Below, piece by piece: positions 52,553 through 56,549 of a DNA stretch of 64,000 bases. The stretch comes from the human T2T-CHM13v2.0 reference genome, Homo sapiens: assembly GCF_009914755.1 (NCBI RefSeq), contig NC_060925.1; one strand, given 5' to 3'. Position 1 is the first letter of the stretch. Every line of letters begins with the position of its first letter. Under the pieces are notes generated by a model. That model worked only from the letters and a program-made list of their open reading frames with translations. It was not told where the DNA came from and did no database searches. Made by a program: the position numbers and the translations under genes.

Positions 52553-52619
52553 ATGGCGCCTGCCCCAGTCACCCTGCTGGCCCCTGGGGCAGCATCCTCA
52601 ATGTCTTGCAGCCAGCCCG
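52553..52619 (+). CDS. MST1L: Captured non-MST1 first coding exon of MST1L (MAPAPVTLLAPGAASSMSCSQP-G)
   Basis: Strong Kozak gccatcATGG; 22 codons + 1 nt then GT donor (G|gtgcaa); phase 1 matches MST1 exon 2 (ag|GG CAG CGC TCG); fused peptide ...[12 protein letters not shown] matches my recollection of the annotated MST1L N-terminus. Confidence 0.75.
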
Positions 52620-53974
52620 GTGCAATAAACAGGAAGACTTCGGGGAAAAACTCCTGCTTGGCATAGGCTACTCCCAGTCACCATCTGGGACACGTCATGA
52701 TGAGCTATGAGCTGGCACCAGTGGGAATCTCTGATGAAGGTTGGGACTCCCCGAAGCATCACACATGTGTGGAGCATTCTCTAGTAGGAAGACCTTTTTA
52801 GAGTACAAAGGCCAGATCCTGCCCTCAAGGGGTTTACAGGCCATTAGGGAGATAAAACAACCTAGGGCAAGTGCTGGAGATGCAGCATCAGCCAACTGCT
52901 GAATACACTCAAAAAAATGAGAGCCCACTGGATTGTCTGGGAGCCTCCTAGGAAAGCTGAGTCCAAGCTGGGCTGGGAGGTTGGATAAGGCTGTGGCTGG
53001 GAGAAAAGGGAGAGGCAAGGCAGAGAGAGAAAGGAATGGCAGAAAGGTGTAAGGAAGAGACCTATTTGAAGAAGAGGAGAGAAAAGAAATTAACACTTGG
53101 AAGATAGGTTTGGGTCTGTCTGTGGGAGCCTCGTTGCCCAGCTGCATTTATACCCCATCACTGGCACTGTGGGGAGTTTTGAGAGGAGAGTGAAATTAAC
53201 AAAGTGGGGCATGGGAGGAGGGGGGGTCATGAAGGATGAGAGCAAGCAAGTCACCATGTAGTTACAACAGTGGCCCAAGGGTGCTCTCCAGGAACATGTG
53301 GGGCATGGGAGCCCAGGGCAGGAGGAGGGCTCCGCTTCCTCTGTGCTCTAAAAAGGGAAGGGATCAAGGGGTGAAGATTCCAGCCCCTTTGGAAGTGGAG
53401 GAGGCTAGGGAAGAGCTCTTACTACAGGGAATCCTGTTCTCATGGACCTGGAGGCCAGGGCCTTTGCTGAGAACATGGCAGGGGAGGGCAAGGGCTCACA
53501 GAGGGAAAATTCAAAAACTCCAACAACTACTGGGAAGGAAGTGGAGTGAGGAAGGGATGAAGAGAGTGAATTTGTGGGTTCGGTGGACAAGGTTTTCTGG
53601 CTCTTCCTAGCATCCCAGGAGTTCAGAAAGCACAGGGTAAAAGCCACTTACTTTCTCCCTCTACTTTGATGGAGGGTTGACTATGGGCTAGTGCTGGTCT
53701 AGGAACTGAGGGGAGATGAAGGGCCTCAGATACATGTTCTCTGTCTTCACCAAGCTTGTTGCAGAGTGAAGGTAAGAAACATAATACAATTGCAATAAAG
53801 AGAAATGGACATGGGTCCTGCCCATTTGAATCAGAGATTGTTAGAAATACAGACTTCTGCCAACTGATTAAATCCCACCACCACCACCACCGCCACCATT
53901 ATCAGAAACTTTCTTGGCACAGGGCACAAGCTTGTGTCTTTTTTTCAAGGCTAGTTCTAACACACGGTGTAACA

Positions 53975-54172
53975 TCCATGAGTCAGATTGTCTTGGTTTC
54001 TATCCCAACTTTACCACTTACTGACTCTATGTGTGTGTGACTGCTCTTGCCTCAGTTTGTTCATCTAAAAAATAGGATAATAGCAGTACCTACTTCGTAG
54101 GATTAAATGTGATCTTTCTTATAAAGTCCTAAGAAACAGCCTAACACAGCAGGTGCTTAGTAACTGTTGGCT
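53975..54172 (+). mobile_element. MIR
   Basis: gcctcagtttgttcatctaaaaaataggataatagcagtacctacttcgtaggatt. Confidence 0.7.
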
Positions 54173-54189
54173 GTTCGCTAAAGGGCATG

Positions 54190-55090
54190 ACTAGGGTTGT
54201 GGTAGGGGAAAAACACGGTGCTGTGGGAATCCAGGTGGGGGATCTAACCTGGACCTGAGGGTCAGGGAAGGCTTTCTGGAAGAGGTGACTTCCAAGCTGA
54301 GACATGCAGGAGAATGAGGAGTGAACCAGGTCGCATGGGTGAAAGCGAGAGTTTAAGCAGAGAGAACAGCAGGTGCAAAGTTCCCAGACAAGAGATCCAA
54401 AACCATGGAAGGGACTGACTGTGGTTTGGTGGGGCTGGAATGCAGGGCGAGGCAGGGCTGTGGAGGGGCAGGAGATGTCCAGATCCTGGAAGTGTTTGAA
54501 TTCTATCCTGAGAGCCACAGGAAGCTGCTGCAGGGCTTTAAGGAGAGAGGGATCTGATCTGTGATTTGAGGCATCCCTCTTGCTACGGTTTGAAGAGTCG
54601 GTTGAAGGCACAAGCCCAGAGCCAGAGGCGAGTGAGGAAGAGGTTGACATGATCCCAACAAGGGAGACAGAAGGTCTGAACTAGGAAAAGGGCTGTGGAG
54701 AGGGAGAAAGTGGGCAAACTGACAAGCACCTGGGTGGCCGATGGAAGTGGGGGGCTCAGGAAGATGAGCGTGCCAAGGGTGGCTCTGGACTTGGGTTTGA
54801 GCAACATTTCCACTGGATGGATGTTGAGAAAGGGAAGATGGAAATGGAGCACATTTGGGGAGAGAAATATAAATTCAGGTTTCAGTACATTGAGATTTTT
54901 AGTGCTTATGAGATGTCCCAGTGGAGATGTCTGTCCACTGGGCAACTGGACATCAGGCTTTGGTGCTCAGGACCTATGGTGGGTTGTAAATATGTTTTTG
55001 GAAACCATGAGCATTTAGAGCTGAGGCTGAGAATTGACATAATGTTCAGTGAAGACTAGGAGATGCAGGAGGGGGTTCATAGGCTCAAGG
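54190..55090 (-). mobile_element. L2 fragment
   Basis: cagggaaggctttctggaagaggtgac, gatctgatctgtgattt, gggcaactggacat. Confidence 0.7.
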
Positions 55091-55183
55091 AAGCAGTAAA
55101 GGAATTGAGTATATGAAACTTCATACATATGTTGCAGTCAACATAGTCATATAATTAGTTAAGATGAAGTCATCCTGGAGGAG

Positions 55184-55229
55184 TGGCTCCCACTCCTGCT
55201 GCTTCTGACTCAATACTTAGGGGTCCCTG
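55184..55229 (+). pseudogene. MST1L: Decapitated MST1 exon 1 (signal peptide WLPLLLLLTQYLGVP, no ATG)
   Basis: tggctcccactcctgctgcttctgactcaatacttaggggtccctg|gtgagt; in-frame upstream TAA at 55160-55162 and no in-frame ATG. Confidence 0.88.
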
Positions 55230-56549
55230 GTGAGTGCCCCCAACCCTGATCCCCATCTGCCTTCAGGAGGGGGTTGGCCCCATTCTCCTATTCTGGGATG
55301 AGAAAAAAGTCGGGGAGCCAGAGGCTCAGTGGGCATGGGGCAGTGACCTTGGCCTCTTGAGCACAGCTGGGAAGCCCTAGGAACACACAGACACGGCCCA
55401 CTTAGGCCTCTATTAGCACGTCTGCTCTAGCACTGAAGCAGTGTTAGGACCACACAGATGCACGCACACAGCAGGAAATGACCCCTCCTGAGCCTGATCT
55501 ACCCCTCTAACCTAGCGTATGCCTTTGTGCAGGTGAGAGCCCAGATTTGGAGTCTGAATGCCTAGCCAGGGCCCCTGGCTGGGTAATGTGATGGCTCTGA
55601 GCCTTAGCATTCTCATTTGAGAGATGAGATGGGGCAAGCTCCATCACCCACTGCTCTCACAGAGCGTATGTGTTAGATCTGAGCCCGGTGCCTGGGCCAC
55701 TACACAGAGGCACCGGTGATAACTACCAAGTCTGGGCCTGCTTCCCAGGGGAAATTTTTTTGACAAGTATCTGTGCAGGGGGGCTAGACTGGCCCTTGAA
55801 AGTGCATACAGGGTCCATCCCAGAAGCCTTGTAGCTTTGATCCCCTGAATGAACAAAGTGTGGACATGCCAATACACATTACTGACATGTATGCCCACCT
55901 GACCTGCACCCACTCATGCCCACTCTGCAGGGCAGCGCTCGCCATCGAATGACTTCCAGGTGCTCCGGGGCACAGAGCTACAGCACCTGCTACATGCGGT
56001 GGTGCCCGGGCCTTGGCAGGAGGATGTGGCAGATGCTGAAGAGTGTGCTGGTCGCTGTGGGCCCTTAATGGACTGCTGGTGAGTGGCCACTGGGCCTAGA
56101 TAAGACTGGGGGCAGGGGAGCCTGGGCCGTGGCGTTACCCTGTGCCTTCTTCTCTCCAGGGCCTTCCACTACAATGTGAGCAGCCATGGTTGCCAACTGC
56201 TGCCATGGACTCAACACTCGCCCCACTCAAGGCTGTGGCATTCTGGGCGCTGTGACCTCTTCCAGGAGAAAGGCGAGTGGGGGTGGAGAGGGGCAGGGTG
56301 GGAGACAGGGGACCTCAGCCCAAGTTGATCTTCTGTCTCTTGCTCCCAGACTACATACGGACCTGCATCATGAACAATGGGGTTGGGTACCGGGGCACCA
56401 TGGCCACGACCGTGGGTGGCCTGTCCTGCCAGGCTTGGAGCCACAAGTTCCCGAACGATCACAAGTGAGACAAACACCTTCCCTCCGTCCCGGCCTGGGA
56501 CCTTCCCCCAGCACACACTATAGTGATGCTCTGGGCCCTCAGGTACATG

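What the first reader, a model, noticed from the sequence alone, without database searches (positions are those of the whole stretch)
52553..56078. Chimeric gene: an unrelated block donates a new start exon to a decapitated MST1 copy
Seen: a strong-Kozak ATG at 52553 opens 22 codons and ends at a phase-1 GT donor (52620). The intact MST1 exon-2 acceptor at 55931 is also phase 1, giving [31 protein letters not shown]. The frame then stays open through exons 2-10 (1223 nt). This exon lies 2.6 kb outside MST1 homology. Knowledge: I recall this N-terminus from the annotated MST1L protein, so the fusion itself is probably known. Inference: start-codon and promoter capture at a duplication junction kept the duplicate expressible. 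The new N-terminus is weakly hydrophobic, so the product may not be secreted.
Basis: partly seen in the sequence, partly recalled or inferred. Interest (0 to 1): 0.8.

Follow-up and report, generated by a model that had tools for sequence, protein, structure and literature searches.

The report
A copy of chimeric gene MST1L
This is a copy of the already described human MST1L gene, a damaged duplicate of the MST1 growth-factor gene that lost its own start and borrowed a new first coding exon from unrelated DNA copied in from the far end of chromosome 1.

Summary
ATG 52553 (strong Kozak context), 22 codons, a phase-1 GT donor at 52619|52620 and the phase-1 MST1 exon-2 acceptor at 55930|55931 are all present. 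The frame is open for 1223 nt through exon 10.

The fusion is already known. A UniRef entry for human MST1L isoform 2 starts with exactly this fused N-terminus. Pei et al. 2012 describe MST1P9/MST1L as a 5'-truncated MST1 copy with a novel TSS, new 5' exons and a different AUG.

New here:
- The donor block is a 44.15-kb duplicon from chr1:234.17-234.21 Mb. The ATG, ORF and donor already existed there.
- The MST1 breakpoint removes the start codon itself.
- The junction carries a wrap-around piece that suggests a circular intermediate.
- With MST1L's 30-nt mini-intron, this copy, which RefSeq calls a transcribed pseudogene, has a 754-aa ORF. Its inverted twin has a TGA in exon 7.
- Kringle 4 is disrupted, the new N-terminus is poorly hydrophobic, and substitutions look neutral.

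Whether this copy uses the junction is untested.

The parts
10986..55098 (+). Duplicon copied from chr1:234167195-234211319 (1q42-type parent). It supplies all 5' exons and whatever promoter is used.
   Evidence: Megablast gives one 44,152-column alignment at 99.22%. The 501-nt exon block has only 3 copies in the genome.
46655..47044 (+). Alternative 5' exons of RefSeq XR_008486227.1 (46655-46673 and 46913-47044). The strong donor at 47044 is also phase 1, and an in-frame ATG lies at 46670.
   Evidence: Hub gene table. One search shows the frame and the donor CAG|GTAAGA. One search gives a 777-codon ORF from this start.
52553..52619 (+). New first coding exon: ATG, 22 codons and one carried G, with a GT donor at 52620. 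The exon may begin at an acceptor at 52349|52350 or 52359|52360 (inferred). An in-frame upstream ATG lies at 52490.
   Evidence: It is identical in the 1q42 parent and in the twin copy, with no differences across 52487-52622.
55096..55128 (+). Wrap-around piece. It matches the sequence at the START of the 1q42 segment (234167162-234167198) but is joined to the segment's END. ACAT is present at both ends of the insert.
   Evidence: 97% over 37 nt; 33 nt at 100%; left junction.
55133..55183 (+). 51-nt filler identical to part of a dispersed repeat copy at chr1:18666413-18666463. It contains an out-of-frame ATG.
   Evidence: 100% over 51 nt. Shorter 94-95% matches occur on four other chromosomes.
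55184..55229 (+). Remnant of MST1 exon 1: signal-peptide codons 3-18 without the ATG. Its donor at 55230 is intact. It now lies inside the new intron.
   Evidence: MST1's ATG is at chr3:49717934 and homology starts at 49717932.
55180..59844 (+). MST1-derived duplicon, matching chr3:49717932-49713271 on the minus strand.
   Evidence: 97.58% over 4668 columns.
55931..57969 (+). MST1 exons 2-10: 55931-56078, 56160-56272, 56350-56464, 56543-56679, 56761-56881, 57026-57144, 57347-57515, 57636-57766, 57867-57969. All are in frame with the new start.
57970..57999 (+). 30-nt GT-AG mini-intron, letter for letter the one published for MST1L. If it is not removed, TGA follows exon 10 at once.
   Evidence: for the sequence, (PMC4675715 Table 4; stop at codon 409 without it).
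58000..58232 (+). Extended exon 11: the rest of the old intron 10 plus old exon 11. The old acceptor at 58095-58096 is CG instead of AG and old exon 11 has a 1-nt deletion, both shared by all five 1p36 copies. Kringle 4 is read out of frame for its first part.
   Evidence: The Kringle profile matches only residues 50-77 of 77, at 32.1 bits, below the 34.3 cut-off.
58324..59803 (+). Exons 12-18 and the natural MST1 stop (59801-59803). Exon 12 is 37 nt, against 36 in MST1. The frame survives only with acceptor 58432 (754 aa) or with exon 12 skipped (736 aa).

Best explanation
The locus is a copy of the known MST1L (formerly MST1P9/MSTP9) chimeric gene.

Shown:
- A full MST1 duplicate reached 1p36 from chr3 with its promoter.
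- Three lesions are shared by all five 1p36 copies: a lost exon-11 acceptor, a 1-nt deletion in exon 11 and a 1-nt insertion in exon 12.
- In one lineage a 44.15-kb segment copied from chr1:234.17-234.21 Mb was joined to MST1 through a short composite filler. The breakpoint lies at MST1 codons 1-3. It removed the promoter and the ATG and left the rest of the signal-peptide exon stranded.
- The fused unit was then duplicated in inverted orientation. This window holds one copy and chr1:16.476-16.530 Mb holds the other.

Inferred:
- Transcription starts in the 1q42-derived block.
- A donor there pairs with the first available acceptor, MST1 exon 2, because the stranded exon 1 has none. The donor can be the weak one at 52619 or the strong one at 47044. 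Both are phase 1 and both are preceded by in-frame ATGs that already existed in the parent.
- A full reading frame needs the 30-nt mini-intron plus either exon-12 skipping or the alternative acceptor at 58432. Those choices give 736-754 codons in this copy.
- The predicted product lacks the MST1 signal peptide and has a disrupted kringle 4, and the lineage shows no sign of purifying selection. The locus most likely acts as a transcribed, largely non-functional fusion and not as a working MSP-like ligand.
For: Junction and frame.

Identity with annotated MST1L. [quoted passage not shown] The published 30-nt MST1L intron is identical to window 57970-57999.

In print. [quoted passage not shown]

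Origin of the block. Window 10986-55098 matches chr1:234167195-234211319 at 99.22%. There are no differences in 52487-52622 among the parent and the two copies.

Breakpoint. MST1's ATG is at chr3:49717934 and homology begins at 49717932. Three other 1p36 copies keep the ATG and at least 3 kb of upstream sequence.

Order of events. The tree places (window, twin) as a clade with support 0.989 inside the 1p36 copies. The three lesions are shared by 5 of 5 copies.

Relaxed constraint.
- Since the split from the other 1p36 copies there are 3 synonymous and 12 non-synonymous changes. The neutral expectation is 77% non-synonymous, and omega 0.2 is rejected at P = 0.0018.
- Window versus twin: 3 synonymous and 13 non-synonymous changes, omega 1.31.
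- The twin has TGG>TGA at the position equivalent to window 57089.

N-terminus. The best 8-residue Kyte-Doolittle mean is 1.59, against 2.56 for the MST1 signal peptide.

Kringle 4.
Against: - No transcript data could be examined, so use of 52619^55931 from this copy is unproven. The RefSeq model for this locus skips that exon, and the hub table calls the locus a transcribed pseudogene.
- Pei et al. 2012 say mass spectrometry supports translation of MST1P9. That argues against 'non-functional'. However, the one plasma proteomics paper I read groups MSTP9 and MST1 entries together.
- The window copy has kept a 2.2-kb frame open.
- The selection test rests on 15 changes. Gene conversion among copies could blur both the tree and the inferred order of lesions.
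- Hydrophobicity is only a heuristic. No signal-peptide predictor was available.
Confidence: 0.8

Rival explanations
1. The fusion encodes a real, translated, lineage-specific protein: a 'resurrected' paralog with a new function. It would be either intracellular or secreted through the weak new N-terminus.
For: A 736-754-codon frame is open in this copy. GENCODE re-annotated MST1P9 as protein-coding, citing mass-spectrometry support and the full-length mRNA AY192149. PAN, Kringle and Trypsin domains are recognised in the annotated isoform. The beta-chain part matches solved MSP structures 4QT8 and 2ASU at E 1e-127 to 1e-140.
Against: The substitution pattern is neutral, and the twin copy has a nonsense codon. 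Kringle 4 has 49 aberrant residues in its first part. The disulfide-rich domains have no convincing signal peptide in front of them. Upstream ATGs are present. Peptides shared with MST1 cannot prove translation of this gene. RefSeq calls this locus a transcribed pseudogene.
Confidence: 0.15
2. In this copy the 52553 exon is a minor or unused exon. The real transcripts run 46655-46673 / 46913-47044 directly to 55931, as in the RefSeq model, and are non-coding or use the ATG at 46670.
For: RefSeq XR_008486227.1 has exactly this structure (hub table). The 47044 donor matches 8 of 9 consensus positions, against 5 of 9 for the 52619 donor. It is also phase 1 with an in-frame ATG, giving 777 codons.
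Against: The model is only predicted. It retains the 78-nt intron 4 and contains a non-GT-AG junction at 57963/58091, so it looks alignment-driven. The annotated MST1L protein uses the 52619 junction. The exon and its flanks are nearly identical in both copies, so nothing sequence-specific disables it here.
Confidence: 0.3
3. The wrap-around at the right junction comes from a tandem duplication at the 1q42 parent that was later copied across its head-to-tail joint. It does not come from a circular DNA intermediate.
For: A head-to-tail joint with 3-7 nt of imperfect microhomology is what a tandem duplication also leaves.
Against: The transposed piece is exactly one unit long, with a 4-nt ACAT overlap at its two ends. 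That fit is expected for an opened circle and would be a coincidence for a random window over a tandem array. The T2T parent locus shows a single copy in the 70 kb examined.
Confidence: 0.25

Closest known systems
MST1L (MST1P9 / MSTP9, 'brain rescue factor 1'), the GENCODE case study of a 'resurrected' pseudogene (Pei et al. 2012, PMC3491395, main-text passage and Additional file 1 Fig. S1 legend read)
   Same: The first 23 residues and their join to exon 2 are the same. The 30-nt mini-intron is the same. The copy is 5' truncated relative to MST1 and MST1P2. At 13 of the 14 coding sites where the two T2T fused copies differ, the UniRef MST1L isoform 2 agrees with this window.
   Different: RefSeq annotates this locus on T2T-CHM13 as LOC128966628, a transcribed pseudogene with other 5' exons. 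It differs from the UniRef isoform at a few residues. It is one of two inverted copies, and I could not tell which one corresponds to the reference MST1L locus.
MST1 (macrophage-stimulating protein, HGF-like protein) on chr3
   Same: 97.6% DNA identity from codon 3 to the 3' end. The exon structure and most splice sites are the same, including the natural GC donor of intron 3. The stop codon is the same.
   Different: There is no MST1 promoter, no ATG and no usable signal peptide. The exon-11 acceptor is lost, exon 11 has a 1-nt deletion and exon 12 a 1-nt insertion. There are 27 non-synonymous differences in 634 comparable codons. The residues after the activation-site SKLR read VAGG instead of VVGG.
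MST1P2 and the two other 1p36 MST1 copies (chr1:16.10, 16.27, 16.56 Mb), the 'MSP pseudogene' cluster of van der Drift et al. 1999. That paper was not read; its title was seen in a reference list.
   Same: They share the three lesions and fall in the same 1p36 clade.
   Different: They keep the MST1 ATG and at least 3 kb of upstream sequence and lack the 1q42 block. They carry exon-2 frameshifts of 1 nt or 5 nt that the fused copies lack.
Segmental duplications made through circular DNA intermediates (Chicote et al. 2020, PMC7450558; abstract and a term search of the main text seen)
   Same: The order is reversed, with the start of the donor segment found after its end. Only microhomology and short filler occur at the breakpoints.
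   Different: That paper's main text does not contain 'chr1', 'chromosome 1', 'MST1' or '1q42'. Here the wrap-around is only 33-37 nt, and the same junction created a gene fusion.

Membership tests
MST1L/MST1P9-type chimeric MST1 copy | Non-MST1 first coding exon giving the annotated MST1L N-terminus, joined in frame to MST1 exon 2 | tested here: met
   (sequence and phases); the UniRef MST1L isoform 2 is 100% identical over the 23 residues and continues with the exon-2 residues.
MST1L/MST1P9-type chimeric MST1 copy | 5' truncation relative to MST1 and MST1P2 | tested here: met
   Homology to chr3 starts at the G of the ATG. MST1P2 and two other copies align to MST1 for at least 3 kb further upstream.
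MST1L/MST1P9-type chimeric MST1 copy | Internal splice changes that restore a full CDS (30-nt intron; exon skipping or shifted site) | tested here: met
   The mini-intron sequence is identical to the published one. ORFs of 754, 736 and 701 codons arise with the alternative patterns. A stop appears at codon 409 or 503 without them. These results concern sequence potential only.
MST1L/MST1P9-type chimeric MST1 copy | Transcription from the novel TSS and actual use of the 52619^55931 junction by this copy | not testable with these tools
   No RNA data were available. The RefSeq predicted model starts at 46655 and skips the exon. Pei et al. cite locus-specific ESTs and mRNA AY192149 for the reference locus.
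MSP/HGF-type plasminogen-related growth factor (secreted; PAN, four kringles, protease-like domain) | N-terminal signal peptide | tested here: inconclusive
   The MST1 signal-peptide exon has no ATG and no acceptor. The new N-terminus has a best 8-residue hydrophobicity of 1.59 against 2.56, and its longest hydrophobic run is 3 against 5. No SignalP was available.
MSP/HGF-type plasminogen-related growth factor (secreted; PAN, four kringles, protease-like domain) | Four intact kringles | tested here: not met
   In the only open reading, the first part of kringle 4 is replaced by intron-derived and frameshifted residues. The Kringle profile matches only residues 50-77 of the 77 encoded by 58001-58231, at 32.1 bits, below the 34.3 cut-off.
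MSP/HGF-type plasminogen-related growth factor (secreted; PAN, four kringles, protease-like domain) | PAN domain and protease-like beta chain | tested here: met
   Pfam finds PAN_1 and Trypsin in the annotated isoform. PDB matches to the MSP beta chain are 4QT8 and 2ASU. The window reading has the same regions open.
Segmental duplication via circular DNA intermediate | Reversal of sequence order (the end of the donor segment followed by its start), with only microhomology or short indels at the breakpoints | tested here: met
   Window 55096-55128 matches 234167166-234167198, which is the start of the segment whose end (234211319) precedes it. ACAT is at both ends. The joint has 3-7 nt of imperfect microhomology.
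Segmental duplication via circular DNA intermediate | Absence of a tandem duplication at the parent locus in other haplotypes or species | not testable with these tools
   Only one human assembly is held. In it the parent is single-copy over the 70 kb examined.

The most novel reading that the evidence does not exclude
The fused MST1L-type gene was created in a single event. A circularised 44-kb piece of 1q42 opened and inserted at 1p36 with its end landing on the MST1 start codon. That swapped a secretory leader and a liver-type promoter for pre-existing non-coding exons that happened to carry in-frame ATGs. In the T2T genome the intact, coding-capable copy is the one labelled a pseudogene (this window), while its twin is dead. 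It may encode a non-secreted MSP-like protein that arose late in the ape or human lineage and has a function of its own.
Probability: 0.12. Interest if true: 0.55.

Novelty: already known. Interest (0 to 1): 0.27.

Why it matters
The fusion is a textbook-style example, already used by GENCODE, of how a truncated duplicate can regain a start codon and a promoter from neighbouring DNA.

- where the new 5' end came from;
- that its ATGs and donors pre-existed in non-coding DNA;
- that the break removed exactly the MST1 initiation codon;
- that the junction bears the mark of a circular intermediate.

It also flags a practical annotation point. On T2T-CHM13 the copy with the open MST1L-type frame is labelled a transcribed pseudogene. 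Its twin carries a nonsense codon. The two are 99.65% identical over 20 kb, so short-read expression, CNV and exome results reported for 'MST1L' (for example) mix two or more copies.

Tried and rejected
- **Earlier findings.** The search of earlier findings was not open.
- **Peptide in print.** A search for the 22-residue N-terminal peptide found 0 papers.
- **Literature on the origin.**
  - 'MST1L' + 'human-specific' + 'paralog' found 0 papers.
  - None of the 20 listed papers for 'MST1L / segmental duplication / chimeric' contained MST1L.
  - The 2026 chimeric-pseudogene paper PMC13122177 has no 'MST1', '1p36' or '1q42' in its main text.
  - I therefore found no printed statement of the 1q42 origin.
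- **Uninformative passages.** PMC3927612 only lists MSTP9_HUMAN among paralogs. PMC5084464 only records name changes of one transcript.
- **tblastn.** tblastn of the UniRef isoform against both copies was too fragmented to use. It was replaced by a site-by-site check.
- **Empty site.** I looked for the site of the 44-kb insertion before the event. The left flank (window 8300-10985) belongs to another multi-copy 1p36/1q21 duplicon. Its 98% copy at chr1:16.44 Mb diverges 14 nt before the junction into unrelated sequence. The flank has no counterpart next to the other MST1 copies. The target site was not reconstructed.
- **CpG island.** None exists anywhere in 44-56.5 kb; CpG o/e is at most 0.46. 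A CpG-island promoter is rejected.
- **De novo ATG or donor.** The idea that the ATG or donor arose after the duplication is rejected, because both are unchanged from the parent.
- **Whole exon 1 deleted.** Rejected. Codons 3-18 and the exon-1 donor remain.
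Full report
**1. The observation**

The window has ATG at 52553 in the context gccatcATGg, 22 sense codons, one extra G at 52619 and GT at 52620. The MST1 exon-2 acceptor is ...ctctgcag|G at 55930|55931. Both sites are phase 1, so the carried G plus GG gives Gly and the MST1 frame follows.

The 78-nt intron 56465-56542 must be removed, and exon 10 must end at 57969. The RefSeq model in the hub table retains that small intron, which brings TGA at 56466 into frame. 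It also has a non-GT-AG joint at 57963/58091.

- The 52619 donor is weak, matching 5 of 9 consensus positions.
- An in-frame ATG lies 21 codons upstream at 52490.
- A 9-codon out-of-frame uORF starts at 52438.

**2. Is it known?**

Yes.
- A search with the read-through ORF of the exon (58 aa, 'longer' proteins) returned 1 protein with E <= 10 among 43 candidates. [quoted passage not shown] Its sequence begins with the same 23 residues followed by the exon-2 residues.
- PMC4675715 (passages read) gives the 30-nt intron of MST1L (NM_001271733.1, supported by AY192149.1). Its letters are those of window 57970-57999.
- Pei et al. 2012 (PMC3491395; one main-text passage and the Fig. S1 legend in Additional file 1 read) state four things. 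MST1P9 derives from MST1, 'almost certainly via' MST1P2. It is 5' truncated relative to both. [quoted passage not shown] It needs two internal splice changes for a complete CDS.

**3. Where the new exon comes from**

The held genome is the window's own assembly. The 501-nt block around the exon has 3 copies in it (3 candidates, 3 scored):
- this one;
- chr1:16485453-16485953 on the minus strand;
- chr1:234208524-234209024.

Local alignment shows that window 10986-55098 is collinear with chr1:234167195-234211319 at 99.22% over 44,152 columns. A Pfam search placed the IRF2BP2-type zinc-finger exon on chr1 at 233999711-233999866. The parent therefore lies about 167-211 kb beyond it. From memory, that is the lncRNA-rich interval between IRF2BP2 and TOMM20.

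In a three-way alignment the parent and the two copies show no difference from 52487 to 52622. None falls inside the RefSeq 5' exons either. The ATGs, the short ORF and the donors were therefore already present in the parent. Nothing was created after the move.

**4. The break in MST1**

MST1 on chr3 aligns to window 55180-59844 at 97.58%. The ATG that opens the leucine-rich MST1 leader is at chr3:49717934, and homology to the window starts at 49717932. From memory, that is MST1's annotated start codon. A second in-frame ATG 14 codons upstream is also lost.

The junction alignment shows the window reading GGAGGAG then TGGCTCC where MST1 has GGATGGGG then TGGCTCC. Codons 3-18 of the signal peptide (55184-55229) and the exon-1 donor (55230) are still there, but without a start and without an acceptor. 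In the signal-peptide frame a TAA lies upstream with no ATG after it. The one nearby ATG is out of frame (read).

The three other 1p36 copies (chr1:16.10, 16.27 = MST1P2 by the hub's coordinates, 16.56 Mb) keep the ATG. They align to chr3 for at least 3 kb further upstream.

**5. The junction itself**

Between the end of the 1q42 homology (55098) and MST1 there are about 81 nt.
- Window 55096-55128 is identical (33 nt) to chr1:234167166-234167198, the very start of the same 44-kb segment. It is followed by 4 nt of unknown origin.
- Window 55133-55183 is 100% identical (51 nt) to chr1:18666413-18666463. This is part of a dispersed repeat, with 94-95% partial matches on four other chromosomes.
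- The insert begins with ACAT at 10986 and the wrap-around ends with ACAT.

The transposed DNA is thus one unit of the parent, circularly permuted, with a 4-nt terminal overlap and a head-to-tail joint at an imperfect 3-7-nt microhomology. That is the signature proposed for circular DNA intermediates by Chicote et al. 2020 (abstract read; their main text has no 'chr1', 'chromosome 1', 'MST1' or '1q42'). A tandem duplication at the parent is the alternative.

**6. Order of events**

Pairwise substitution differences over the shared 4.66 kb:

| Comparison | Differences | Percent |
|---|---|---|
| window vs MST1 | 104/4659 | 2.23% |
| window vs the three unfused copies | not extracted | 1.27-1.36% |
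| window vs twin | 31/4663 | 0.66% |

A FastTree with MST1 as outgroup groups window and twin with support 0.989.

In the 1q42-derived part, over window 42261-55098, 96 columns separate the parent from both copies. Sixteen are private to the window and 25 to the twin.

All five 1p36 copies share three lesions:
- the exon-11 acceptor is CG instead of AG;
- exon 11 is 136 nt instead of 137;
- exon 12 is 37 nt or more instead of 36.

The unfused copies additionally have exon-2 frameshifts (147 or 143 nt against 148).

Barring gene conversion, the MST1 body was already damaged when the 1q42 block was joined. The fused unit was then duplicated in inverted orientation. Window 8300-62256 is collinear with chr1:16529972-16476001. 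On a rough 1.2% human-chimpanzee scale these figures place the fusion near or after that split and the last duplication later still. This is inference only.

**7. Coding potential of this copy**

| Splice pattern | Result |
|---|---|
| Mini-intron + exon 12 + acceptor 58432 (RefSeq's exon) | 754 codons, ending at the natural MST1 stop (59801-59803) |
| Mini-intron + exon 12 skipped + canonical acceptor 58449 | 736 codons |
| UniRef-isoform pattern (exon-3 donor +10, exon 4 skipped) | 701 codons |
| Mini-intron not removed | stop at codon 409 |
| Exon 12 + canonical acceptor | stop at codon 503 |
| RefSeq 5' exons, in-frame ATG at 46670, phase-1 donor at 47044 | 777 codons |

The twin copy has TGG>TGA at the position equivalent to 57089 in exon 7. 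At the 14 comparable codons where the two copies differ, the UniRef MST1L isoform agrees with the window at 13 and with the twin at 1.

**8. Would the product work?**

- The new N-terminus has a best 8-residue Kyte-Doolittle mean of 1.59, against 2.56 for MST1's leader. It has no run of hydrophobic residues longer than 3. This is a heuristic and not a predictor.
- The 77 residues encoded by 58001-58231 match the Pfam Kringle profile only at residues 50-77, at 32.1 bits against a cut-off of 34.3. The first part of kringle 4 is intron-derived or frameshifted.
- The 58-aa ORF of the new exon matches no Pfam family.
- Parsimony-polarised changes since the split from the other 1p36 copies are 3 synonymous and 12 non-synonymous. 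The neutral expectation is 77% non-synonymous. P(>=12 of 15) is 0.52 at omega 1, 0.12 at omega 0.5 and 0.0018 at omega 0.2.
- NG86 omega is 1.31 for window versus twin (3 synonymous, 13 non-synonymous) and 0.42 for MST1 versus window. The second path includes the constrained MST1 branch.
- Against this reading, GENCODE cites mass-spectrometry support. The beta-chain region is well preserved, with PDB matches 4QT8 and 2ASU.
- The plasma proteomics paper I read groups MSTP9 with MST1 entries.
- A CNV paper reports a common ~38-kb duplication containing MST1L. This fits the two copies seen here.

**9. Promoter**

No 500-nt bin between 44 and 56.5 kb has CpG o/e above 0.46. The hub table lists RefSeq enhancers at 40163-44801, inside the 1q42-derived block. 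Strong polypyrimidine acceptors at 52349|52350 and 52359|52360 allow the 52553 exon to be an internal exon. If 47044 were spliced to 52350, the upstream ORF would end after four more codons (read). No transcript data could be examined, so the TSS and the exon's 5' end remain open.

**10. Verdict**

- the parent of the new 5' end;
- the pre-existence of its ATGs and donors;
- the break at the MST1 start codon;
- the circular-permutation junction;
- the evidence that the fusion was built on an already damaged copy and evolves neutrally;
- the contrast between an open frame in this 'pseudogene' and a nonsense codon in its twin.

I found none of these in the papers searched. The 1999 Genomics paper on the 1p36 MSP pseudogenes and the segmental-duplication databases were not available to me.

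Noticed in passing
window 55096-55183 and 10986-10989: The 44-kb 1q42-derived insert is circularly permuted. Its right end carries 33-37 nt from its own start, ACAT sits at both ends, and a 51-nt piece identical to chr1:18666413-18666463 follows. This is the signature of a circular DNA intermediate or of a copied tandem joint.
   Followed up: partly
twin copy chr1:16476001-16496000 (L004/L005), position equivalent to window 57089: The inverted twin of this fused gene has TGG>TGA in exon 7. The window copy, labelled a transcribed pseudogene, keeps the frame open and matches the UniRef MST1L isoform at 13 of 14 discriminating sites.
   Followed up: partly
window 46655-47044: The two 5' exons of the RefSeq model also end in phase 1 and carry an in-frame ATG (46670). 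This gives a second possible chimeric start, with a 777-codon ORF.
   Followed up: partly
window 59863-62000: Directly after the MST1 homology comes a block 97% identical to chr3:18913075-18915219. The other 1p36 copies share it, since they align to the window through at least 63094. The ancestral 1p36 duplicon was therefore already a mosaic of two chr3 pieces.
   Followed up: no
window 56465-56542 and 57963/58091: The RefSeq model XR_008486227.1 retains a 78-nt GT-AG intron that MST1 also has. It also contains a non-canonical joint where the exon-11 acceptor was lost. Both look like alignment artefacts of the prediction.
   Followed up: yes
window 56273: Intron 3 has a GC donor in MST1 and in all five 1p36 copies, so it is a natural GC-AG intron. 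A GT lies 10 nt downstream, and the UniRef isoform 2 uses it together with exon-4 skipping.
   Followed up: partly
window 5889-10985: The left flank of the 1q42 insert belongs to a separate multi-copy duplicon, with copies at chr1:15.99-16.67 Mb (91-98%) and in 1q21 (chr1:121-149 Mb, 79-93%). The 98% copy at 16.44 Mb ends its homology 14 nt before the insertion point.
   Followed up: partly
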